The translations under genes and the position numbers were made by a program. Positions 9,790 through 55,931 of a DNA stretch of 64,000 nt are shown here, piece after piece. Every line of letters starts with the position of its first letter. Positions within the stretch are counted from its first letter, which is position 1. The DNA is from a virus (lineage: Duplodnaviria > Caudoviricetes): the IMG/VR virus record IMGVR_UViG_3300021124_000003, positions 8,783 to 72,782 of that record; one strand, 5' to 3'. The notes below the pieces were generated by a model. It made no database searches, was not told the DNA's origin, and worked only from the letters and a program-made list of their open reading frames with translations.

Positions 9790-10545
9790 CTAGTCGACCA
9801 ACGTCTTAGAGCTGGTTGTGGTTGTAATCACCACAGGCGCACCAATCCCATTGAGTGCTTTAGCGATAGCGTTCAGATCCGTTACAACTGCTTCACCGTG
9901 CGGAACGGTGTGGGACGCGGACGCAGACCCACACCGAAGGTTCCCTCCAGGGACGAGCGCGATGTCTCCACCGCTTTGGGTTGTGAGCGTCAGCTTAGCG
10001 ACCAGCATCGTAAGCGATCCAACAAGCTCAACAAGCGCATCGTATTGCGACTTGAGGAACGTGTGCGCGTTGTCGTTGCACACAACACCCGCGACCGTGG
10101 TCGGTGTTTTCGCGGAGTCGTTGTTGAGCTTCCCAACGATCACGCACCCGCTTGCCTCGTCACCGAATGGAACGGCGACAAGGACCTCATCCCCCGCGTT
10201 GAACGGAACGTAGAGTGACCCCCCACCACCTCCGAACAGGCTAGAAACACGGCATGCCACAGGCACTTGGGAAGGCCAGAGCATGACCGACACCCTTGGC
10301 GCTGACAGCAAGTCGGCTGTAGGGGATGGTGTGCCGTCAGGGCCGAATGACACACCGTTTTGCTGAACGATCGCTGGTCCACCGGCTGTTCCTGTTGGGT
10401 TGCCGTCGGGGGAGGCGGCTGGAGCTGGGAGAACCTGCCCGTATGTCAGCCATTGCCGGGTGTCTTGCCCTGCGCCAGAGAAGACCTCTCGAAGCTCGTC
10501 GAAGTCAACTGTAGCGGATGTCTGGCGTACTCGTCTGCCCGCCAT
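9790..10545 (-). CDS. Baseplate spike (GpV/gp45-like)
   Basis: OB-fold motif VPFNAGDEVLVAVPFGD...VIVG; short C-terminal beta repeats; start MAGRRV. Confidence 0.8.
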   Translation of the reverse strand: MAGRRVRQTSATVDFDELREVFSGAGQDTRQWLTYGQVLPAPAASPDGNPTGTAGGPAIVQQNGVSFGPDGTPSPTADLLSAPRVSVMLWPSQVPVACRVSSLFGGGGGSLYVPFNAGDEVLVAVPFGDEASGCVIVGKLNNDSAKTPTTVAGVVCNDNAHTFLKSQYDALVELVGSLTMLVAKLTLTTQSGGDIALVPGGNLRCGSASASHTVPHGEAVVTDLNAIAKALNGIGAPVVITTTTSSKTLVD

Positions 10546-40868: not shown

Positions 40869-43800
40869 CTACCGCATCCGTTGGAGCATCGCACCCCGCG
40901 CGTTGTCGTTCGCCGGCTGCCCGTGCTCAAGTAGGGCCTCCAACCGGGCCACGCGCCTCTCCAGCGAGTCGTTGGCCGCCCGAAGGGTCAGCACCTCGGC
41001 CTGCAACCCAGACATCTCGGCACGCTCGCGCGCTAACTCGTCGGAGAGGTCGGACACGTCGGCTCGACAATCGAGCACCTGTTGCTCGACCTCTTGCACG
41101 GCACTCACGGTCGCGGCCACGAGTGGCATGGTCACGACCTGGTAGAGACCGTTGCCGCCCATGTGAACCGCTTGCGGGATGATGGGTAGCACCTCTTGTG
41201 CGATGAATCCTTCTTGCTGCTCAATGGGGTCAAACCCACTGCTAGGCTTGAAGCGCCAAAGCTTGGGGCTGAGCTGCATGAGTTCATCTATTCCAGTCTG
41301 TACCGGACCCTCAATGTTCTTTACCCGCGCGTCAGACACGGCGCACGAAATCACACCTGAAGAGTCGGTCTTAATGCCCGCCGCACAACTTATGGAGGGG
41401 ACGGACATCGACGATGCACCTAGCATGTTGACGTCGCCCGCAGCGATATAGATCGCGTGATTGGTGGTCGCACCTGACGCGGAAAAGTAACCCGCATAAT
41501 TCGTTCCGCCCGAGTTCGTGGCCCGCGCACGGGCGAATAGGCTGTACTCGGCACCGCTAGACGAGTCGGTGCCGATGTTGTCAAGATAAAGCAACCGAGA
41601 ACCACCAGTGAGCGCTGAACTGTTGGTTGTGATCGTCAACCCGAACCCGCTCGTTAGCGCGTTCGGGTTAATATCCATCCCATCACCACTGGTCGCCGCG
41701 GTGTTGACCGTCACTCCCGTTCCAGATGTCGTGTTAGGCGTGAGCGTGAGGTTCTGAGTCGTATCCCAATCGGCCGCCACCACGTTGGGGTTGGCCGTGC
41801 CCGTAAGGATACGCGCGTGACCGCCGTACGTCGTCGCAGTCGGCCCGTAGGCGTCAAACTCGCCACCCGCGGCCCCTCCACCAAAGGGTGTCGCATAGGC
41901 GCCCGTGATAGCGATCTTCGATGACGCTCCCTGCCCCTGGATTGCTTGAGCGTTCTGGTCAAAGTAGAGATTATTGCTGATCATCGTGCGGAGCTGAGTC
42001 GTTCCGCTGTACGACGATACGTTCAAATAAGACCCGCCGTTCAGTTGCACGTCGAGGGCTTTGGACGACGCAGACTGTGCGGTCGTGGTCGCGTTGACGA
42101 GCAATCCAGTAAACGTGTTCGAGGCGTTGTTGAAGGTCGGGTGAATGGACACCCCCGCTTCTCCGACGCCAGTCAACGTGCTGGCCATCGACCAGTCGCC
42201 CGCCGTACTGTTGATCGCCTTGTTCGAGCCACCGCCCGAGGCAGTAAGTGTCAAGGCATTGTTCACGCTCGTCCCGCCCCCGTGGTCCGCGTTCGTGTTG
42301 CTGATCGTCGCCGCCGTGTTGGTCACGCCGTCCGCCGCCATCGTGCCAGAGAGTGAGACGTACAGCCCCTTATCGCCCGATTGAGCGGTCGAAGTCGTGG
42401 AGAAACTGGCGAGTGTACCGGATGTCAGCGCGTTGGCCGCTATCGAATGTCCAGTTCCAGAGGTCAATCCTGCCAACGTCTGAGAGAGCGCGGTGCCCGC
42501 TGTCTGGTATGCATCCGTCTGAGACCAGTCGCCCGCCGTACTGTTGATCGCCGTATTCATTGTGGCGCCGCTCGCAGTCAGCGTTAGGGCCACGTCGGTC
42601 GTTCCCGTATCGGTGACGGAAGATGTGATCCCCGTGGTGGTTACCTGATTGATGTGCGCGCCGGACATCGACACGTATAGACCCGTCGGAGACGTGTGTG
42701 CGACTGACGTGTCCGTGATACTTACAACCTTGCCTCCGGTCAGATCGTTCACCTGTGGGGTAATCGTCAGTCCGGTGCCAGCGCCCGTTGCAGGAGCGAA
42801 CGTGCATTGCTGAGACGTGTCGCACGACAGCGACGACACCGCGCCAGCGCCGCTTTGAAGTGCAATCGCGGAGGCGGCTTTCAGAGTGAGGTTGCCCGTG
42901 GTGGTCTGCCACGTCGCAGCCGCTCCCTCGCTGATGTTGCCCGCCGCAATGCTGATCGCATTGTTGGTCGTGGCGCCGCTCGCACTGAGCTTGATCGCGT
43001 CGTTTTCCGTACCCGCGTTCGAGAGCGTCGAGTACACGCCGACGGATGTGCCCGCGCTCGTCCCACCGGACTGAGTAACGTAAAGCCCCCATGGGCTGGT
43101 TTGCTGCGTACCCGTGAATGTGATCGACTCACCGATGCCATTGGTAATCGAAGACGATGCGATGCTGTTCCCCGTGCCGCTCGTCAGACTATTGGCCGTT
43201 TGGGCGAGGCATGTCGTGGTCGTGGCCGCGCACGCCTCGGTGACGGCGCCCGTTGACAGAGCAAATGCGCCGCTCGACTGCGACATGTCAAACGACGCAT
43301 TCCCGCCGGGGAGTGCGTACACGCGACCGTGGTTGAGTTGAATGCAGTCGTTGACCGTAGTGCCGTTCGCGGCATTGCACGACAGCGCGACGTTCGAGTA
43401 CCCACCGTTGACGATTACGTTCGCGTATTCGCCGTACGTGTACGGGTTGCCCGTTCCCGCATCGCCATCCCAGGTGGATTCGATTGCGATGTTGCCAGCG
43501 CCCCCCGTCGGACCCACGTACATGTGAACACGCAGACCCTCGCCAGAGTTCACGCCAGTTGAGTGCGACGTGATGCTCTGACAATGCCCCGAGGTGAGGC
43601 CATCGCACGAAAGGCCAATGCCATCACCGCTCGTGGGAAGTGCACCACCGTCGAATACGATGGGGGGCTCGATCTGCGGACCGGCGGGCCCCGTTGCCCC
43701 AGCGGTTCCGGTAGCACCCGTTGCCCCAGCGGTTCCGGTAGCACCCGTTGCTCCAGCGGGAAACCCGCCGTCGACCGTAAGCGACCCAGCGTAGAGCGGC

Positions 43801-44117
43801 CCGCTCACCGTGAACGCCAGCGCGTTCACGGTGGAGTGCAGGAGATCCACACCAAGGACTTGCGTCCCGCTCGCGGTCTGGACCGATAGCGCTTGCGTGG
43901 AGCCGCCGCTCGCGCCCGAAGCTCCGATGAGAAGCAGTTGGGGAGTAACGGTTAGGCCCGCATCGGGCACCGAGCCCGTGGGGCCAACGAGCAGTACCGG
44001 CGTTTGGAGCGGGAAGGGGTTGCCCGCGATGGCGGCACCGAAGATTAGCGTGGGGATCGCGACCCAGGGGAGCGTGTAGACGAGCTTACGGAGAGCATTT
44101 CGAGTAGAGGTTCTCAT
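40869..44117 (-). CDS. Trimeric fibre protein with collagen-like repeat, C-terminal peptidase S74 intramolecular chaperone and N-terminal signal-peptide-like segment
   Basis: SDARVKNI...GFIAQEV...LVAATVSAVQEV plus coiled coil; (GAT)n repeats; internal AINSTAGDWS repeats. Confidence 0.85.
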   Translation of the reverse strand: MRTSTRNALRKLVYTLPWVAIPTLIFGAAIAGNPFPLQTPVLLVGPTGSVPDAGLTVTPQLLLIGASGASGGSTQALSVQTASGTQVLGVDLLHSTVNALAFTVSGPLYAGSLTVDGGFPAGATGATGTAGATGATGTAGATGPAGPQIEPPIVFDGGALPTSGDGIGLSCDGLTSGHCQSITSHSTGVNSGEGLRVHMYVGPTGGAGNIAIESTWDGDAGTGNPYTYGEYANVIVNGGYSNVALSCNAANGTTVNDCIQLNHGRVYALPGGNASFDMSQSSGAFALSTGAVTEACAATTTTCLAQTANSLTSGTGNSIASSSITNGIGESITFTGTQQTSPWGLYVTQSGGTSAGTSVGVYSTLSNAGTENDAIKLSASGATTNNAISIAAGNISEGAAATWQTTTGNLTLKAASAIALQSGAGAVSSLSCDTSQQCTFAPATGAGTGLTITPQVNDLTGGKVVSITDTSVAHTSPTGLYVSMSGAHINQVTTTGITSSVTDTGTTDVALTLTASGATMNTAINSTAGDWSQTDAYQTAGTALSQTLAGLTSGTGHSIAANALTSGTLASFSTTSTAQSGDKGLYVSLSGTMAADGVTNTAATISNTNADHGGGTSVNNALTLTASGGGSNKAINSTAGDWSMASTLTGVGEAGVSIHPTFNNASNTFTGLLVNATTTAQSASSKALDVQLNGGSYLNVSSYSGTTQLRTMISNNLYFDQNAQAIQGQGASSKIAITGAYATPFGGGAAGGEFDAYGPTATTYGGHARILTGTANPNVVAADWDTTQNLTLTPNTTSGTGVTVNTAATSGDGMDINPNALTSGFGLTITTNSSALTGGSRLLYLDNIGTDSSSGAEYSLFARARATNSGGTNYAGYFSASGATTNHAIYIAAGDVNMLGASSMSVPSISCAAGIKTDSSGVISCAVSDARVKNIEGPVQTGIDELMQLSPKLWRFKPSSGFDPIEQQEGFIAQEVLPIIPQAVHMGGNGLYQVVTMPLVAATVSAVQEVEQQVLDCRADVSDLSDELARERAEMSGLQAEVLTLRAANDSLERRVARLEALLEHGQPANDNARGAMLQRMR

Positions 44118-45608: not shown

Positions 45609-45770
45609 GGTGGTTTCGCCTCCCGTAAAGCGTAGCATAGGCGGCTGTGGGCCCGGGTGTACTGAACAGGGGTACAGCAGAAAGAAAACTAGAAAAGGCT
45701 GGATCTGGGTGGACTACCGTGCGACACTAATGTCCTGGGCGTTCCTCGGGGCAGCTAAAGGAACGACAGC

Positions 45771-46019
45771 ATGCCTGAAGTCAAGTACGACGCCGAGTAC
45801 ACCCCCGATTTCACAAAGTATCCGAAGGTGAGCCTTGCCCGGCAATACTCTGGGTCGGCCTTGGACAAGGAGCTAGTGAGCATGCTCCGTGATGCACGCG
45901 CAGACGCGGTGAGAGCTGTTCGTGCTGAGTATGCGGCGGAGCTTAGGTCACGTTACGGACGCGGGTTGCAAGCAGACGCCGTTCTGGTTGAACCAGTAGA
46001 AAGGACTTTTAGTGAGTAA
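45771..46019 (+). CDS. Hypothetical protein
   Basis: AAGGA RBS; first gene of divergent block. Confidence 0.65.
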   Translation: MPEVKYDAEYTPDFTKYPKVSLARQYSGSALDKELVSMLRDARADAVRAVRAEYAAELRSRYGRGLQADAVLVEPVERTFSE

Positions 46020-46182
46020 ACGCACACAGAGTCTTCGCACATGGCCGATATTCTTCTTCTGCGAAGAGGTCGAGCGTGAGCGGGAGATGCGCGACGCGCC
46101 AAGAGGCGGGCAGCACGTAGCGGGGTGGCTTTGCCCAATGATTCTCGCTAGCCCCCGAATTGCTGGGCAGCTTGCGGAATCA

Positions 46183-46467
46183 TTAGGCAGCCGCGTCAAT
46201 CTCCTTCCTGTGCCCGCAGTGGGGGCACGTCCCGGCGGCTGGGTACTTGCCGGCCAGCAGCTCGTCGACACCGACCTCGGCCAGACGTGCGACACGGAAC
46301 GCCATGCTGGCGCTCGGCGCTCGCTCCGTACCGATCTTTGCCAGGTACGTCGCCTTGAAGCGGAGCGCTCGTGCTAGTGGCGCCCAGCCACCGCAGCGCA
46401 TCCGAAGGAAGCGAAGGGCGGCACGCACGTTCGCCTGCTCGGCCGTGGTCAAGTCGGAGGCGTTCAC
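46183..46467 (-). CDS. HTH protein with C-terminal CPHC
   Basis: XRE-like 'LARAL...YLAKI...PSASMAFRVARLAEVGVDELL'; coupled to transposase stop. Confidence 0.75.
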   Translation of the reverse strand: MNASDLTTAEQANVRAALRFLRMRCGGWAPLARALRFKATYLAKIGTERAPSASMAFRVARLAEVGVDELLAGKYPAAGTCPHCGHRKEIDAAA

Positions 46468-47717
46468 GCGGCCCCCTGGAACATCGGCTCGTCGATCCCG
46501 AGTTCATACATGGCGTGCACCAGGACCGTGAGGTTGTAGCAGAGCATCTTGCACAGCACTTCGTTGACCTGGGCGACCGGGCACTTGCTGCGCACCGACC
46601 CGCCGAGCAGGCGCTTGATCGCGGAGAACGCCGTCTCGACGTTCGACCGTCGGTGGTAGTGCGCGAGGAACTCGTCGTGGCGGTAGAGGAACAAGCCCCA
46701 CAGGCGCCGCCAAGCGGCGGGACCGGCGGCCTTGCTATTCGACTTGAACGGGATGTATGGGATGGCGCCGACCGCTTCGATCGCCGTCAGGTTGGCGCGG
46801 CTCAGGTACGCCTTGTCGGCCGACACCTCGGCGAGCGCGAAGCGCTGGGCCGTACTCGACACGAGCGCGGGCAGCTCCGGGCAGTCGTTCGACGTGCTGT
46901 CCGTCACGCGGACCGCCGTAACGATGTTGGTAGTGACGCCCACGCAGGCGTGCGCCTTGACCCAGCCGTGCTCCTTCATCTCGCGCCCGTACTTGTGGTC
47001 GTACCAGCGGTGGTACGTGGCGGTGCCGAAGCCCGTGGAGTCAACGGCGAACGCCGTCTCGATGGCGGCCAACGGGGAGGCGCTCTCCTCGATGAGCGCG
47101 GTCAGGAGCGGCGTCATGTCGGCCCGCTCCATGTAGTTGAAGAGGCTGTTGTAGTGGGGCGCCCGCTCAATCTGCCCCCTGGCGGCACACTCGCGGATGT
47201 CCGTGGTAGCTCGGCGACCCGAGACGGTCGTGTAGACCTTCATCGCCATCCCGAATACGGCGTCCGACAACGCGATCGGCTTCGGGCCGCGTCCGGGGTG
47301 CGGCGGGTTCACGATGCCGTCGCAGAGGTTGCGCAAGAGCGCCTGCACGATGGCCTTCTCGTTACACTGCGCGGCGTTGTAGTTCGGCCAGTCCTGCACG
47401 TACGTCTTGCGCGTGACCTTCACGGACTGCGTGACCACGGTCGTCCCGTCGGGCGCCGTCTCGGTGGTCTGCGAGAACTCGACGGCCCACAGGTGCTTGC
47501 ACTTCGTCCGGCGCAGTTCGTGGTCCGGGCACGTGCACGTCGCGGCCAGCGTGTTGACGATGTAGCCGCCAGCGTTCGCTTGCGAGGGCACCGTCCAGGT
47601 CGACCCTGAGATGCGCTTGATCCGCCGGTCGTTGGCGAGCGCACGGCCGCGCTCCTGCCGCACCACGTGCCCCTCGGCCGTCACTTCCAAGGGAGCGGTC
47701 GTCTCTCCGTTGTTCAT
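46464..47717 (-). CDS. DDE transposase with N-terminal SWIM zinc finger
   Basis: CTCPD...CKHLWAV (SWIM); DWPNYN, AVDSTG, KAH, ADKAY, YHRRSNVETAF motifs. Confidence 0.93.
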   Translation of the reverse strand: MNNGETTAPLEVTAEGHVVRQERGRALANDRRIKRISGSTWTVPSQANAGGYIVNTLAATCTCPDHELRRTKCKHLWAVEFSQTTETAPDGTTVVTQSVKVTRKTYVQDWPNYNAAQCNEKAIVQALLRNLCDGIVNPPHPGRGPKPIALSDAVFGMAMKVYTTVSGRRATTDIRECAARGQIERAPHYNSLFNYMERADMTPLLTALIEESASPLAAIETAFAVDSTGFGTATYHRWYDHKYGREMKEHGWVKAHACVGVTTNIVTAVRVTDSTSNDCPELPALVSSTAQRFALAEVSADKAYLSRANLTAIEAVGAIPYIPFKSNSKAAGPAAWRRLWGLFLYRHDEFLAHYHRRSNVETAFSAIKRLLGGSVRSKCPVAQVNEVLCKMLCYNLTVLVHAMYELGIDEPMFQGAA

Positions 47718-47724
47718 GATGAGT

Positions 47725-47815
47725 ATATTACTACTAGGTATACCCTTCGTCAAGGTCCGGGCGCGGATATACTCTCGCTAACTGACTTGACAGGACATCT
47801 GAACAGTCATACCGT
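47725..47815. promoter_or_regulatory. Divergent sigma70-like promoters, both apparently giving leaderless mRNAs
   Basis: Minus: TTGACG-17-TAATAT ending 7 nt before transposase ATG; plus: TTGACA-17-TACCGT ending 8 nt before ATG at 47824. Confidence 0.65.
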
Positions 47816-47823
47816 AGTGGACC

Positions 47824-48015
47824 ATGGGGATGGTTAAGCTAGACGGATACGAGTGCGAGAGGTGCGGGCACACGTGGCTCCCGCGAGACCACGCGGCTGC
47901 CGAGCAGGAGACGCCGACGGTCTGTCCGAAGTGCAAGAGCCCGTACTGGAACAAGCCGAGACAGCAGGTCCCGGTGCCCGTAGCGAAGCGGAAGAAGAGG
48001 GTGGCGGCTAGATGA
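47824..48015 (+). CDS. Small zinc-ribbon protein
   Basis: CERCGHTWLPR...CPKCKSPYWNKPR. Confidence 0.8.
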   Translation: MGMVKLDGYECERCGHTWLPRDHAAAEQETPTVCPKCKSPYWNKPRQQVPVPVAKRKKRVAAR

Positions 48016-48099
48016 GCAACAGAACAGCAGGCTTCTTGTGGGGGAGTCCTGTGGAGAACGTTGTTGGTTCAGGTGTGGGGATGATGGGGAGAGATCGAC

Positions 48100-49275
48100 A
48101 TGGGAACCGCTGAGAAAACGTGCGAGGCGCTCTCGCCACCTGGTCAGCTCCACCTGATCGTCAACGAGCCGGTGACGCCCAACGCCGACACATGGGTCGT
48201 TGACGAGCGCGTTGACGTCAGCCGTGGTCGCGGTCTCACAGCGATTGGCAGGGGGCTCGCAGGCGCGACGACTCTCGTCACGGACAGGGCCATCGTCGCG
48301 CGCGGCGACTCACTCCAACTACTCAAGTTGGTCCCAAGCGCCTCGGTGTCGCTGATCCTGACCGACCCCCCGTACCACTCCACGAAGAAGGCCAACATTT
48401 ACGGGGACAAGTCATTCGCAGAAGACCGCGAGTACATCTCGTGGATGCGCGGATTCGGTGCAGAGTGGCAGCGTATTCTCAAGCCCAACGGCGCCCTGTA
48501 CGTCTTCTGCGCCACTGCTATGTCAGCTCAACTTGAGGTAATGCTGAGCGAGTTCCTCAAGCCGCTGAACCACATCACGTGGACGAAGCCGAACGAGCCC
48601 GGGTTCGACGGCTGGAAGGGAAAGATGTCGAAGGAGTCGCTTCGACGCTGGTACCCGCATTCTGAGCGTGTGCTCTTCCTGGAGCAAGCGACAGGGGGCG
48701 ATGGGCGAAGGTCGACGCTCGGGCAGTTCCTCCGCGAGAGACGCCTCGTCTCCAAGCTGTCTGGTCACCGCGTAACAGAGTTGACCGGCGAGTACGGCGC
48801 CGTGAATCACGGCGGCGCGATCTCGAATTGGGAGACTGGTCGCAACATCCCAAGCCGCGAGCAATATCGAAAGTTCGCTGAGGTCTTGGAGGCCACGGGG
48901 AAGGTAAAGACCATGCCTGCCTACGAGGACGTCGTGCGGCCGTTCAACATGTCGGGCGACCTTGAGTACACGGATGTATGGACGTTCCCGTCGGTGCGTC
49001 CGTACGAGGGCAAGCACCCGGCAGAGAAGCCGATCGATATGCTCTGTCACGCGATTGAAGCGTCGACTTATCCAGGTGACATTGTACTCGACTGCTTCGC
49101 CGGTTCTGGCGCGACGGCCGTCGCTGCGCTGGCATCTAACCGGCGGACCGTCGCCATCGAGATCGAGGAGGTGTGGGCTCGTAGAGTGACTGAGCGCGTG
49201 TCCTCTTCCGAGGACGCCGCGCCGGAGAAGAGGTCACGGCGTAAGCCAGCGCGGACTCAGGGGCGCCTGTTCTAA
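48100..49275 (+). CDS. N4/N6 DNA methyltransferase (beta order) with embedded XRE HTH
   Basis: TDPPY motif IV, HPAEKP, DCFAGSG motif I; HTH 'LRERR...ISNWETGRNIPS' in between. Confidence 0.9.
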   Translation: MGTAEKTCEALSPPGQLHLIVNEPVTPNADTWVVDERVDVSRGRGLTAIGRGLAGATTLVTDRAIVARGDSLQLLKLVPSASVSLILTDPPYHSTKKANIYGDKSFAEDREYISWMRGFGAEWQRILKPNGALYVFCATAMSAQLEVMLSEFLKPLNHITWTKPNEPGFDGWKGKMSKESLRRWYPHSERVLFLEQATGGDGRRSTLGQFLRERRLVSKLSGHRVTELTGEYGAVNHGGAISNWETGRNIPSREQYRKFAEVLEATGKVKTMPAYEDVVRPFNMSGDLEYTDVWTFPSVRPYEGKHPAEKPIDMLCHAIEASTYPGDIVLDCFAGSGATAVAALASNRRTVAIEIEEVWARRVTERVSSSEDAAPEKRSRRKPARTQGRLF

Positions 49276-50237
49276 TCGACGATCTTGTTGCGTCTGAGGA
49301 CTTTGTGCATCCACTCAAGCGTCTCAGTGATCCCGGAGTCTTTGACCACCACGTTGCAGTGGTGGTGCCCCCACCCGAGGTTGTGCGGCTTGTGGTTCGA
49401 CTTGCCCACCCGAAGCTCCTGCAAGTGGAACAGGCTGGCCTCCGTAACGGCTTGGTCAAGAGTCGCGCGTCCAGCCGCCTGCGTGATCCGCGTGAGAAGC
49501 GCCGTGGCGGACATCTCTTCGAGGCAGAGCGGGCACGTCGTCACCCCCTGCGCATCCACCACGCGGAGGTCGGCCAGTCGCGCGAGATCCAAGAGCTTGC
49601 CGATACGTGCCGCGTCGAGGACAGCGTCGCGGCGAAGTTTCGCGTCACGAGCCGTCATCCCAGACGCCACGGCCGTGTCTATCGCGTTCTTGCACAGCCA
49701 GAACAGGGCCTCCAACTGCGTGCGGCAAGCGTTGACGTTCGCGGTCGAAGCGTACTCGTACACGCGGATCCCAGCGCCCTTCGAGCTAGTCGTCGTGAAG
49801 CCCGCGAGCACCTTCTCACGCCCTTCCGCCGTAGTGCCGGAGATCCGCGCGATGTAGGACCCGCCAAGCGGAGGGCGCCGCCTCGTGGCGACCTCCCACC
49901 CTCGCAGAGTCGGGTCGTTTGCCTCCCATTGGTCGCGCGTCTCGTAGAAGACCAGCGCATTCTGACCGAGCGTAAGCCCTCGCTGCGCAAGTTCATTGTC
50001 AGGGTTGACGGTGCCGAAGTACCACGCGGGCTCTACGAGGACGATGTACCCGTTTTCGTACGCGGCCGATCCGTCGTCTGGGATGGTGCAGCCCTCCCAC
50101 TGCCCGAGTGGAATCAGCACCGTACTGTAGCGAGCCACCCGATTCTGGAACACCTCATCGTCGTCGGCACCGCGCGTCTGTCCCGTCTTGTAAATTTTGG
50201 TTTTGAGGAGTTTGGGAAGGTTCGGAAGTCTGGCCAC
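49272..50237 (-). CDS. Type II restriction endonuclease (HNH-type, BstXI-family-like)
   Basis: Convergent with MTase; CPLC...H..ELR...H...NL.WGHHHCN beta-beta-alpha motif; KIYKTGQTRGADDD N-terminus recalled for BstXI-like enzymes (not searched). Confidence 0.7.
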   Translation of the reverse strand: MARLPNLPKLLKTKIYKTGQTRGADDDEVFQNRVARYSTVLIPLGQWEGCTIPDDGSAAYENGYIVLVEPAWYFGTVNPDNELAQRGLTLGQNALVFYETRDQWEANDPTLRGWEVATRRRPPLGGSYIARISGTTAEGREKVLAGFTTTSSKGAGIRVYEYASTANVNACRTQLEALFWLCKNAIDTAVASGMTARDAKLRRDAVLDAARIGKLLDLARLADLRVVDAQGVTTCPLCLEEMSATALLTRITQAAGRATLDQAVTEASLFHLQELRVGKSNHKPHNLGWGHHHCNVVVKDSGITETLEWMHKVLRRNKIVD

Positions 50238-50460
50238 GCCGCGAAGCGTGCCGATGTGGGATACGGTAGGCCAAGTTCATTGGTCTACGCACCGCGCAAT
50301 TATTGGGCAGCGAGGCGAATTGCTGGGCAGGCGGGAATCATTGGGCAAAGCCTAGCGGGGTCACATTCATACTTCTCTGGTGTGCCGCCGCACGCTTTCA
50401 CGCGGCTTGAGTGGTGGGCGCGTGAGTTCCGCAGTATTCTCGGCGAAAAGGAGTAGGTGC

Positions 50461-55310: not shown

Positions 55311-55931
55311 GCGTCACGTATGGCCACATAGTGCAACGCAAGGCAACATACGTCATCTAACCCGGTCATGCGGAGGTATATGCGGAGGTATATGCGTCCA
55401 TGCGAATGAACGCATAAAAGATCAAGCTGGCACGCTCTCCTCGAGGTGGGGCGTCACGTATGGCCAGGGATGGGAGCCAGGCCAGGGGGGGTAAGAAAGC
55501 TTCCAAAGTACGATTTATTCCCTTTGGATCTCGCACACTTACGATCGTAGCACGATTACGACGTAGACAAGCTAGGTGGCTGGCGGCATAGTCCTCTTAC
55601 CGCTACGGAGCGGGGCGGAGGAGCAGGTAGCCGAAGGGTGAGCCTGGCCAGGACATCCTCTGCGCCGCGCGCCGCTCGCATGTCGCGAGCTGCTCTGAAC
55701 GAGCACAGCCCCCGACCGGGGCACCCTAGTGGCCCTTTTAAGGCGACTAGGACAGGCGGGGTAGCCAAAAAAAAGCACCTCGCCTGTCCTAGTCCCTGCC
55801 CTACTACGCGATACAGGGACACGGCGTCACCCAAATCGGCGGAATCTCTTTAGATTCCGCTGGTTTGGATGCCTCCGTGTTACGGGAGCAGATTTGAGGA
55901 CGGTAGTGATCCACGTATTGTCACGTATGGC
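55311..55931. repeat. Dispersed GTCACGTATGGC repeats
   Basis: GCGTCACGTATGGCCA at 55311 and 55451; GTCACGTATGGC at 55920, shortly before the first early ORF. Confidence 0.8.

What the first reader, a model, noticed from the sequence alone, without database searches (positions are those of the whole stretch)
46118..50361. IS903-like transposon with a SWIM-fused transposase delivering a complete R-M system into a phage
Seen: exact boundaries (22-bp TIR, 9-bp TSD), a target gene that rejoins in frame when the element is removed, and cargo of HTH, zinc ribbon, MTase and HNH-type REase under a single transposase (not a composite transposon). An intact TSD and ORFs imply recent insertion. Known: IS903 has GGCTTTG-starting ends and 9-bp TSDs but normally carries only a transposase. 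Inference: a cargo-carrying defence transposon family defined by SWIM-DDE, downstream HTH and divergent zinc ribbon, which may swap cargo and here arms a phage for inter-phage competition or addiction.
Basis: partly seen in the sequence, partly recalled or inferred. Interest (0 to 1): 0.8.

Follow-up and report, generated by a model that had tools for sequence, protein, structure and literature searches.

The report
Restriction-gene transposon inside a phage
A complete 4.2-kb jumping gene, a distant cargo-carrying relative of the classic insertion sequence IS903, has landed in a tailed phage genome and brought a full BstXI-type restriction-modification system with it; it belongs to a large family that I could not find described in the papers I could search.

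Summary
Window 46127-50352 (4226 bp) is bounded by inverted repeats (18/18 exact, 21/22, 29/35) that begin GGCTTTG. It is flanked by a perfect 9-bp duplication, TAGCGGGGT.

It carries one transposase (SWIM finger plus DDE_Tnp_1 with the YREK motif), a translationally coupled Xre-like HTH gene, a divergent 61-63-aa zinc-ribbon gene, and a convergent BstXI-family endonuclease/methyltransferase pair. Each end also has three copies of a 13-bp subterminal repeat.

It lies between the tail-fibre module and a small-gene operon of a tailed phage.

The family reading also holds. Of 97 related loci, 44 show GGCTTTG ends with 9/9 (one 8/9) duplications and lengths of 2.5-9.3 kb. None is transposase-only. 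Near-identical cargo-bearing copies sit at different sites in the same genomes. Relatives with 76-78% identical transposases carry unrelated cargo. About a third carry DNA methyltransferase or restriction cargo.

Corrections:
- The HTH gene is limited to one clade.
- Cargo is not only defence.
- "HNH-type" is unproven.
- The interrupted ORF has no homologues.
- No empty site was found.
- Activity and benefit to the phage are untested.

This scan had already met the same family on other DNA at least eight times.

The parts
46118..46126 (.). Left copy of the 9-bp target-site duplication, TAGCGGGGT
   Evidence: Direct reading and script (D16, 24)
46127..46161 (+). Terminal inverted repeat at the transposase-distal (HTH) end. 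It begins GGCTTTGCCCAATGATTC.
   Evidence: the repeat finder I1: 35 nt, 83% complementary, first 18 exact. 13/18 identical to the IS903B IR.
46132..46189 (.). Three copies of a 13-bp subterminal repeat (TGCCCAATGATTC-like) at 46132-46144 (+), 46157-46169 (-) and 46177-46189 (-). Presumed transposase-binding sites.
   Evidence: 6 of the 15 matches (<=3 mismatches) in the 64-kb window fall within 63 bp of the two ends
46183..46467 (-). 94-aa Xre/Cro-like HTH protein with a C-terminal CxxC. Its start overlaps the transposase stop by 4 nt. It is a core gene of the nearest clade, not cargo.
   Evidence: No Pfam hit above cut-off. tblastn finds homologues at 41-62% identity directly downstream of the transposase in 12 relatives with different cargo. 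The Atlas feature and structure neighbours are HTH_3/HTH_31 families (a lead only).
46464..47717 (-). Transposase, 417 aa from ATG 47717 (the ORF is open to TTG 47753). N-terminal SWIM zinc finger (C73, C75, C85, H87 in 429-aa numbering) plus a DDE_Tnp_1 catalytic domain (D238, D313, E373 within Y366-R369-E373-K380).
   Evidence: Pfam. All listed residues are invariant among 22 homologues. Aligns to the IS903B transposase at 24% identity, E 2e-13, over residues 89-395 only. Gene callers on identical contigs give 417 aa.
47718..47823 (.). AT-richer divergent control region between the transposase and zinc-ribbon genes. A sigma-70-like site (TTGACG-17-TAATAT) lies on the minus strand at 47753-47725, ending 7 nt before ATG 47717.
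   Evidence: Consensus scan only: 1 site found against 0.7 expected. Function is not shown.
47824..48015 (+). 61-63-aa zinc-ribbon protein (CxxC...CxxC, SPYWN motif, basic tail). It is divergent from the transposase, heads the cargo side, and is conserved across the family.
   Evidence: Zn_ribbon_8 below cut-off. tblastn finds 41-62% identity in about 26 of 44 relatives, always next to the transposase start. Alignment A3: four Cys invariant.
48100..49275 (+). Cargo: beta-class N6/N4 DNA methyltransferase (DPPY then FxGxG) with an HTH_31 insert.
   Evidence: PF01555 6.7e-39, HTH_31 1.8e-6. The same domain make-up occurs in partners of BstXI-family REases elsewhere.
49272..50237 (-). Cargo: BstXI-family type II restriction endonuclease, convergent with the MTase and overlapping it by 4 nt.
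   Evidence: PF09552 6.9e-104, full length. 1836 homologues, the nearest at 74%. It keeps every residue that is invariant among 16 family members.
50297..50347 (.). Three copies of the 13-bp subterminal repeat at 50297-50309, 50317-50329 and 50335-50347, all on the minus strand.
50318..50352 (-). Terminal inverted repeat at the cargo (REase) end
50353..50361 (.). Right copy of the 9-bp target-site duplication, TAGCGGGGT
46012..46126 (+). 5' part of the interrupted 69-codon phage ORF. It continues at 50362-50456.
   Evidence: Rejoined frame is open, 210 nt. It overlaps the upstream gene by 8 nt and ends 4 nt before the next ATG. No homologue.
50362..50456 (+). 3' part of the interrupted phage ORF

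Best explanation
Window 46127-50352 is an intact non-composite (unit) transposon. It belongs to a large lineage distantly related to the IS903 group of the IS5 family.

Sequence-based annotation (shown here):
- It has a single DDE transposase. The IS903-type catalytic core (DDE with YREK) is preceded by about 88 extra residues that contain a SWIM zinc finger.
- The two ends begin GGCTTTG. Each carries three copies of a 13-bp repeat.
- Insertion made a 9-bp target duplication.
- Two small genes travel with the transposase. A zinc-ribbon protein is transcribed divergently at the head of the cargo side. An Xre-like HTH protein is translationally coupled to the transposase.

Inferred: the transposase binds the two ends and moves the whole 4.2 kb by cut-and-paste. 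The two small proteins most likely regulate or assist transposition and expression of the divergent promoter region.

Cargo. Between the zinc-ribbon gene and one end lies a two-gene BstXI-family type II restriction-modification module. The same module occurs elsewhere without transposon ends, so it was captured.

Site. The element landed in a tailed phage, in the second small ORF of an operon next to the tail-fibre module.

Inferred consequences. The methyltransferase protects the phage and the infected cell's DNA. The endonuclease cuts unmodified DNA of competing phages or other incoming elements. The pair may also stabilise the transposon by post-segregational killing.
For: Structure:
- Inverted repeat 18/18 exact and 29/35, with a 9/9 target duplication exactly at the tips. 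The chance of a 9/9 match is about 4e-6.
- A single copy in the record and no flanking IS pair.
- Six 13-bp repeats lie within 63 bp of the ends, out of 15 matches in 64 kb.

Transposase:
- PF01609 plus PF04434.
- D238, D313, Y366, R369, E373, K380 and the four SWIM ligands are invariant in 22 homologues.
- It aligns with IS903B across all three catalytic motifs.
- IS903B fetched here is 1057 bp, and its IR shares 13/18 positions with this element's IR.

The family moves with cargo:
- 44 of 97 related loci have GGCTTTG end pairs with 9/9 (one 8/9) duplications, at lengths of 2464-9286 bp.
- L095 and L097 are 4681/4684 identical. L100 and L101 are identical apart from a 20-bp indel. Each pair comes from one genome and has different duplications.

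Cargo swapping:
- Relatives with 76-78% identical transposases (L103-L105) carry unrelated genes.
- All-against-all BLAST finds only the HTH, zinc-ribbon and MTase families shared between elements.

Cargo origin: L107 has the same REase/MTase pair at 75% nucleotide identity, without transposon ends.

R-M intactness: the RE_BstXI match is full length and all family-invariant residues are kept. The MTase has both catalytic motifs (sequence).

Phage context:
- Baseplate wedge 1.3e-29 and major head protein 2.9e-16.
- Tail fibre with Peptidase_S74.
- phrog_1297 and phrog_1314 downstream.
- The same arrangement is 100% identical on a 96.9-kb contig.

Composition: the element is 64% GC against 59% for the window.
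Against: - No empty site and no second copy of this exact element was found. Mobility of this copy is therefore inferred from its intactness and from its relatives.
- The interrupted ORF has no homologue.
- R-M specificity and activity are unknown. CCAN6TGG sites are only mildly under-represented: 12 against about 20 expected.
- No integrase was found in the 77%-complete record, so phage lifestyle is unknown, and so is how an R-M would pay off.
- The three contigs that carry the element are 100% identical. They may not be independent samples.
Confidence: 0.8

Rival explanations
1. The element is a genuine past insertion but is now immobile and domesticated. The phage keeps it only for the R-M genes, and the transposase and small genes are on their way to decay.
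For: Only one copy in the record. The same insertion is fixed on all three contigs that carry it. No excision or empty-site product was found.
Against: All five ORFs are open. Every catalytic and zinc-binding residue that is invariant in the family is kept. The ends are 18/18 identical and the duplication is 9/9. Decay would be expected to show in the ends first.
Confidence: 0.12
2. The R-M pair acts mainly as a selfish addiction module for the transposon itself (post-segregational killing of cells or phage genomes that lose it), not as a weapon for the phage.
For: R-M or MTase cargo recurs in 16 of 45 delimited elements, in both cellular and viral contigs. This fits a benefit to the element that is independent of the host replicon. 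Established knowledge: type II R-M systems can behave as addiction modules (Kobayashi's work, from memory).
Against: Not exclusive with a defence or competition role. Nothing in the sequence separates the two. Many family members carry no R-M.
Confidence: 0.3
3. The stretch is not in a phage genome proper. It lies in host DNA next to a prophage, or the contig is an assembly chimera.
For: The IMG/VR record is linear and 77% complete. Most genes downstream of the element have no PHROG match.
Against: Structural genes (head, baseplate, tail fibre) run up to 45.6 kb. The downstream 13.6 kb consists of small ORFs plus phrog_1297 and phrog_1314 (7.9e-48), with no housekeeping genes. The junctions are identical in three assemblies, including a 96.9-kb contig that extends 10 kb past both sides.
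Confidence: 0.06
4. The boundaries are coincidental: a short IS sits next to the phage's own R-M genes.
For: None beyond the fact that IS5-family elements are normally about 1 kb.
Against: There is no inner end. GGCTTTG-type ends occur only at 46127 and 50352. The duplication flanks the whole 4.2 kb. 44 relatives show the same long architecture.
Confidence: 0.02

Closest known systems
IS903 / IS903B (IS5 family, IS903 group)
   Same: DDE_Tnp_1 catalytic core with the DDE and YREK motifs aligned. Ends begin GGCTTTG, with 13/18 IR positions identical. 9-bp target duplication (the 9 bp for IS903 is from established knowledge).
   Different: IS903B is 1057 bp with one gene. Its transposase has a DDE_Tnp_1_5 N-terminal domain and no SWIM, and identity is only 24%. 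The element here is 4226 bp with five genes, a SWIM N-terminus, triple subterminal repeats and cargo. Its NCBIfam IS5 score is 126, below the cut-off of 140.
Transporter IS (tIS) of the IS1595 and IS66 families
   Same: IS-like structure with one pair of ends, one transposase and passenger genes.
   Different: Different transposase families. [quoted passage not shown]
Tn7-like transposons with defence cargo (Benler et al. 2021, PMC8649781)
   Same: Transposons whose variable cargo is rich in defence systems such as R-M.
   Different: Tn7-like elements need several transposition proteins (TnsA/B/C plus a targeting protein; established knowledge). They are much larger and insert at specific attachment sites. 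This element has a single DDE transposase and a 9-bp duplication.
BstXI-family type II R-M systems (Pfam PF09552 plus a PF01555 methyltransferase)
   Same: Full-length RE_BstXI match. Convergent, overlapping MTase with an HTH_31 insert, as in L107 and L109-L111.
   Different: Here the pair sits inside a transposon in a phage. The recognition sequence is not known.
Related elements already reported by this scan (e1-5721206, e1-5288653, e1-5891269, e1-5831827, e1-5327353, e1-5231602, e1-1239305)
   Same: SWIM-DDE transposase, GGCTTTG ends, 9-bp duplication (11 bp in the first-reader title of e1-5231602), and R-M or other cargo. Several are in phages.
   Different: Other genomes and other cargo. 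This one carries a BstXI-type two-gene system and belongs to the clade with the downstream HTH gene.

Membership tests
IS5 family, IS903 group | DDE_Tnp_1 transposase with a DDE triad and Y(2)R(3)E(6)K motif | tested here: met
   PF01609 3.9e-22. D238, D313, Y366, R369, E373 and K380 are invariant. The motifs align with IS903B.
IS5 family, IS903 group | Terminal inverted repeats beginning GGCTTTG | tested here: met
   Window ends compared with IS903B ends fetched from NZ_CP058549.1: 13/18 identical.
IS5 family, IS903 group | 9-bp target-site duplication | tested here: met
   TAGCGGGGT on both sides. 9/9 in 43 of the 44 delimited relatives, 8/9 in the other.
IS5 family, IS903 group | About 1.05 kb, with the transposase as the only gene | tested here: not met
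   4226 bp with five ORFs, against 1057 bp for IS903B.
IS5 family, IS903 group | N-terminal DDE_Tnp_1_5 domain of the transposase | tested here: not met
   IS903B has PF13737. The window protein has SWIM instead and no PF13737 hit.
IS5 family (NCBIfam equivalogs) | Score above the curated cut-off of an IS5 model | tested here: not met
   Best model is NF033579 at 126.3 bits, against a cut-off of 140.
Composite transposon | Two IS copies flanking the cargo | tested here: not met
   Only one transposase gene. The only internal repeats are the two 28-35-nt ends.
Transporter IS (tIS) | One pair of IRs and one transposase, with passenger genes inside | tested here: met
   The published tIS families are IS1595 and IS66 only.
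BstXI-family type II R-M | RE_BstXI endonuclease with an adjacent PF01555 methyltransferase | tested here: met
BstXI-family type II R-M | Recognition of CCAN6TGG, and enzymatic activity | not testable with these tools
   Site count only: 12 against about 20 expected. Not decisive.
   No HNH Pfam hit. Invariant CPLC and HHHCN motifs. Marginal profile hit to DraIII, E 0.033.
SWIM-DDE IS903-like cargo transposons (the scan's own grouping) | SWIM-DDE transposase homology, GGCTTTG ends, 9-bp duplication, extra genes | tested here: met
   43-78% transposase identity to 100 loci. Ends and duplications. Zinc-ribbon and HTH homologues.

The most novel reading that the evidence does not exclude
The element is one member of a very large lineage of single-transposase cargo transposons that has no published description I could find. 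It has more than 4000 transposase homologues across bacteria, archaea and phages. The lineage has its own accessory proteins: a family-wide zinc-ribbon protein and a clade-specific HTH protein. It has multi-site ends and, in part of the family, targeted insertion into the centre of palindromes. It shuttles restriction-modification and other conflict genes between cells and phages. If so, IS5-type elements would be a major overlooked vehicle for defence genes, and phages would be regular carriers.
Probability: 0.5. Interest if true: 0.75.

Novelty: new variant of a known kind. Interest (0 to 1): 0.62.

Why it matters
- IS5-family elements are textbook 'transposase-only' insertion sequences. The TnCentral description lists passenger-carrying IS only in the IS1595 and IS66 families.
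- Here a distant IS903 relative carries a whole R-M system, and its relatives carry many other cargoes. This adds a simple, single-enzyme route by which defence genes move.
- Transposable elements are reported to be poorly tolerated in phages (abstract of PMC3429520). An intact one that also equips the phage with an R-M system is therefore a useful case for studying phage-phage competition and how defence genes spread.
- The small size (4.2 kb) makes the system easy to test in the laboratory.

Tried and rejected
Empty site. None was found by any of these routes:
- an exact junction pattern in viral contigs and in metagenome contigs;
- relatives of the neighbouring 300-aa phage protein in viral contigs and in metagenome contigs;
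- megablast of the region against GenBank phages;
- tblastx of all fetched loci against the window, which found no related flanks.

Homologues of the rejoined 69-aa ORF: none.

This is no evidence either way.

Close named relatives in 72,556 plasmids: none above 29% identity.

Solved structures for the transposase profile: none.

Literature searches for a SWIM-IS5 or IS903-like cargo family found nothing relevant. The Asgard 'aloposon' lead was unrelated.

My first ORF calls on high-GC elements were wrong, because antisense ORFs were picked up. I replaced them with GC3-filtered, homology-anchored calls.

An off-by-one in my first boundary (50353) was corrected to 50352.

Full report
**1. The observation**

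Reading the sequence and the repeat finder show an inverted repeat with arms at 46127-46161 and 50318-50352. It is 35 nt long and 83% complementary. The first 18 nt (GGCTTTGCCCAATGATTC) are exact, and 21 of the first 22 match. Immediately outside the arms lies the same 9-mer, TAGCGGGGT, at 46118-46126 and 50353-50361. The element proper is therefore 46127-50352, 4226 bp.

A search of the whole 72.8-kb virus record finds this one copy. Apart from it, only the two ends match each other, so this is not a composite transposon.

Each end also has three copies of a 13-bp motif (TGCCCAATGATTC-like). Six of the 15 matches (up to 3 mismatches) in 64 kb fall within 63 bp of the two tips. At the cargo end all three copies point the same way. 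At the other end the two inner copies are inverted relative to the terminal one.

**2. The genes**

*Transposase.* It spans 46464-47717 on the minus strand, 417 aa from the ATG. The ORF stays open to a TTG at 47753, but gene callers on identical contigs use the ATG. It matches DDE_Tnp_1 (3.9e-22) and, just above cut-off, SWIM (22.2 against 19.6 bits).

In an alignment with 21 homologues at 67-77% identity, these residues are all invariant:
- the four SWIM ligands C73, C75, C85 and H87;
- D238 and D313;
- the Y366-R369-E373-K380 motif.

*HTH protein.* Its stop-start junction overlaps the transposase gene by 4 nt, and it encodes 94 aa. It has no Pfam hit. Its Atlas neighbours by features and by predicted structure are Xre/Cro-type HTH families (a lead only).

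*Zinc ribbon.* A 61-63-aa protein is transcribed divergently from the transposase across a 106-bp spacer.

*Cargo.* Downstream of the zinc-ribbon gene, on the same strand, lies a PF01555 methyltransferase with an HTH_31 insert (6.7e-39). Convergent with it, overlapping by 4 nt, is a full-length BstXI-family endonuclease (PF09552, 6.9e-104).

The endonuclease keeps every position that is invariant among 16 family members, including CPLC and HHHCN motifs. A profile search of solved structures gives only a marginal hit to DraIII (E 0.033).

**3. Relation to IS903**

I fetched an annotated IS903B from a Klebsiella plasmid.
- It is 1057 bp between GGCTTTG ends.
- Its IR, GGCTTTGTTGAATAAATC, shares 13 of 18 positions with the window's IR.
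- Its transposase aligns with residues 89-395 of the window protein at 24% identity (E 2e-13). The DSTG, SAD.AY and Y..RS..ET motifs are in register.
- IS903B has a DDE_Tnp_1_5 N-terminal domain and no SWIM.
- The window protein scores below the NCBIfam IS5 cut-offs (126 against 140).

So the element works like IS903 at its ends and catalytic core. It fails the group's size, single-gene and N-terminal-domain features. It is a distant relative, not a member.

**4. The family**

The transposase has more than 4000 significant homologues in the 5.8-billion-protein set. The nearest is 78% identical.

I fetched 17 full-length viral and 80 genomic loci. The nearest genomic ones are Polyangiaceae and Myxococcales MAGs. 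Others come from Chloroflexota, Acidobacteriota, Gemmatimonadota, Planctomycetota, Verrucomicrobiota, Eremiobacterota and an Aenigmatarchaeota MAG.

A script paired GGCTTTG ends around each transposase gene and scored the flanking 9-mers.
- 44 loci have an end pair with a 9/9 (one 8/9) duplication.
- Their lengths run from 2464 to 9286 bp.
- None is transposase-only.

Two pairs of copies show that the whole unit moves with its cargo:
- L095 and L097 come from one Planctomycetaceae MAG, are 4681 of 4684 positions identical, and have different duplications.
- L100 and L101 come from one Dehalococcoidia genome, are identical apart from a 20-bp indel, and have different duplications.

**5. Core and cargo**

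tblastn with the window's proteins gives the following.
- The zinc-ribbon gene is found at 41-62% identity in about 26 of the 44 elements. It is always next to the transposase start, nearly always divergent, and often heads a same-strand cargo operon.
- The HTH gene is found at 41-62% identity in 12 of 44. All 12 are in the clade nearest the window, and the gene is always directly downstream of the transposase.

L103-L105 have ORFs of the right size in both positions.

All-against-all BLAST of the remaining proteins finds only two shared families, both methyltransferases. Everything else is unique to its element.

Pfam and PADLOC scans of 102 cargo proteins, plus per-protein scans, give:
- six PF01555 MTases, some fused to Mrr-like or inactive-REase domains;
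- six type IIG-like N6_Mtase fusions of 657-979 aa;
- a D12-class MTase;
- HTH-Peptidase_M78 regulators in two elements;
- an ArsR/ACR3/ArsC-like set in L098;
- P63C, ParA-like, SocA/Panacea, DUF3800 and Nmad2 domains;
- many proteins with no match.

Counting the window, L011 (by tblastn) and L105, 16 of 45 non-redundant delimited elements carry a DNA methyltransferase.

The three nearest relatives sit on phage-like contigs and carry quite different cargo, on either side of the core:
- L103: 78% identical transposase, 5101 bp between GGCTTTG ends but no matching 9-bp duplication, so its boundaries are not confirmed.
- L104: 78%, 6616 bp, duplication GCCGGCAGG.
- L105: 76%, 5464 bp, duplication CGGCGCGGG.

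Cargo therefore turns over faster than the transposase diverges.

**6. Origin of the cargo**

The endonuclease has 1836 homologues. The nearest (74%) lies on contig L107, which has the same convergent MTase. That contig is 75% identical in nucleotides over 1989 bp and has no GGCTTTG-type transposon ends flanking the pair. More distant pairs (L109-L111) sit next to radical-SAM genes.

The MTase with an HTH_31 insert is thus the normal partner in this R-M family. The module was captured as a unit.

**7. Phage context**

Upstream, on the minus strand:
- a major head protein (phrog_1357, 2.9e-16);
- a baseplate wedge protein (phrog_6, 1.3e-29);
- a 1082-aa tail fibre with collagen-like repeats and a Peptidase_S74 C-terminus;
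- two further ORFs, ending at 45638.

At 45771 a plus-strand operon of small genes begins. The element sits in its second ORF. Rejoined, that ORF is 69 codons. It overlaps the first gene by 8 nt and ends 4 nt before the third gene's ATG, behind an AAGGAG. That tight packing fits a real gene, but no homologue exists in the protein collection.

Downstream there are only small ORFs, an ATPase (phrog_1297) and a phrog_1314 protein (7.9e-48) up to the record's end.

The same arrangement is 100% identical on a 96.9-kb ENA contig and an 11.4-kb Logan contig.

No tyrosine integrase is present in the 77%-complete record. The element is 64% GC against 59% for the window.

**8. How it most likely works**

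Sequence-based annotation (no assay was done):
- an intact transposon with IS903-like ends and chemistry signature;
- a complete R-M pair by sequence;
- a family that moves cargo.

Inferred:
- The transposase uses the SWIM-containing N-terminus and the triple 13-bp repeats to assemble on the ends, and moves the unit by cut-and-paste.
- The zinc-ribbon protein and the HTH protein control the divergent promoter region or assist the transposase.
- The MTase, transcribed with or after the zinc-ribbon gene, protects the carrier.
- The REase, which presumably has its own promoter in the 115 bp between its start and the right end (none was detected by the scan), attacks unmodified DNA.

Whether the pay-off goes to the phage (exclusion of competitors), to the host, or to the transposon itself (addiction) cannot be told from sequence. 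CCAN6TGG sites number 12 against about 20 expected in the window, which is not decisive.

**9. Novelty**

Searches of the held literature found no description of SWIM-bearing IS5/IS903-like elements with cargo. [quoted passage not shown] ISfinder itself could not be queried.

This scan had already reported the same family on other DNA at least eight times, including in phages. My delimitation and cargo catalogue were made independently and agree with those notes.

I class it as a new variant of a known kind: an IS5-type DDE transposon with a new N-terminal domain, accessory genes, multi-site ends and cargo. This copy is a new member of that lineage.

**10. Limits**

- No empty site or second copy of this exact element was found.
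- No read-level data were available.
- The complex predictor was closed.
- Gene calls in related loci are my own heuristic.
- The host is unknown. Polyangia is suggested only by the nearest transposase relatives.

Noticed in passing
L045, L046, L050, L057, L060, L063, L066, L071, L072, L073, L090, L098 (insertion sites listed): Many family members sit exactly in the centre of a C/T-rich palindrome of the type CCCTCTCC-N9-GGAGAGGG, in hosts from different phyla. Seven of 43 perfect-duplication sites have at least 7/10 complementary flanking bases; one of the seven (L087) is the abutted-ends junction noted separately. The figure for random positions in the same loci is 0.6%. The window's own site is not palindromic.
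   Followed up: partly
L087:4994-5020 and 10279-10305: This element sits in the 9-bp spacer between the abutted ends of two other, related but different, elements (CAAAGCC-GTTGGACCG-GGCTTTG on both sides). An end-to-end junction seems to have served as the target.
   Followed up: partly
L098:6877-11981: A family member whose cargo looks like an arsenic-resistance set: HTH_5/ArsR, an SBF (ACR3-like) permease and an LMWPc (ArsC-like) phosphatase. Cargo is therefore not only defence. Assignment of the ArsR and ArsC hits to this element rests on the tally, not on a per-protein scan.
   Followed up: partly
window 47725-47753 (minus strand): A sigma-70-like hexamer pair, TTGACG-17-TAATAT, ends 7 nt before the transposase ATG at 47717. 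That would make the transposase mRNA leaderless or nearly so. It is a consensus match only.
   Followed up: no
window 47822-47833: The only CCAN6TGG site inside the element overlaps the zinc-ribbon start codon. The window has 12 such sites against about 20 expected. This is meaningful only if the enzyme really has BstXI specificity.
   Followed up: no
window 55717-55743: The otherwise identical 96.9-kb contig (L113) differs from the window here by a short length difference, with overlapping BLAST segments. It is probably a repeat copy-number difference.
   Followed up: no
window 40869-44117 (minus strand): A 1082-aa tail fibre with collagen-like Gly-X-Y runs and a C-terminal Peptidase_S74 (intramolecular chaperone) domain lies 2 kb from the insertion.
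   Followed up: no
L020, L046, L057 (gene just upstream of the transposase): In some elements the slot of the zinc-ribbon gene is filled by a different small protein of 75-80 aa. L046 and L057 share one. An earlier scan note calls the one in the element matching L020 an RHH protein.
   Followed up: no
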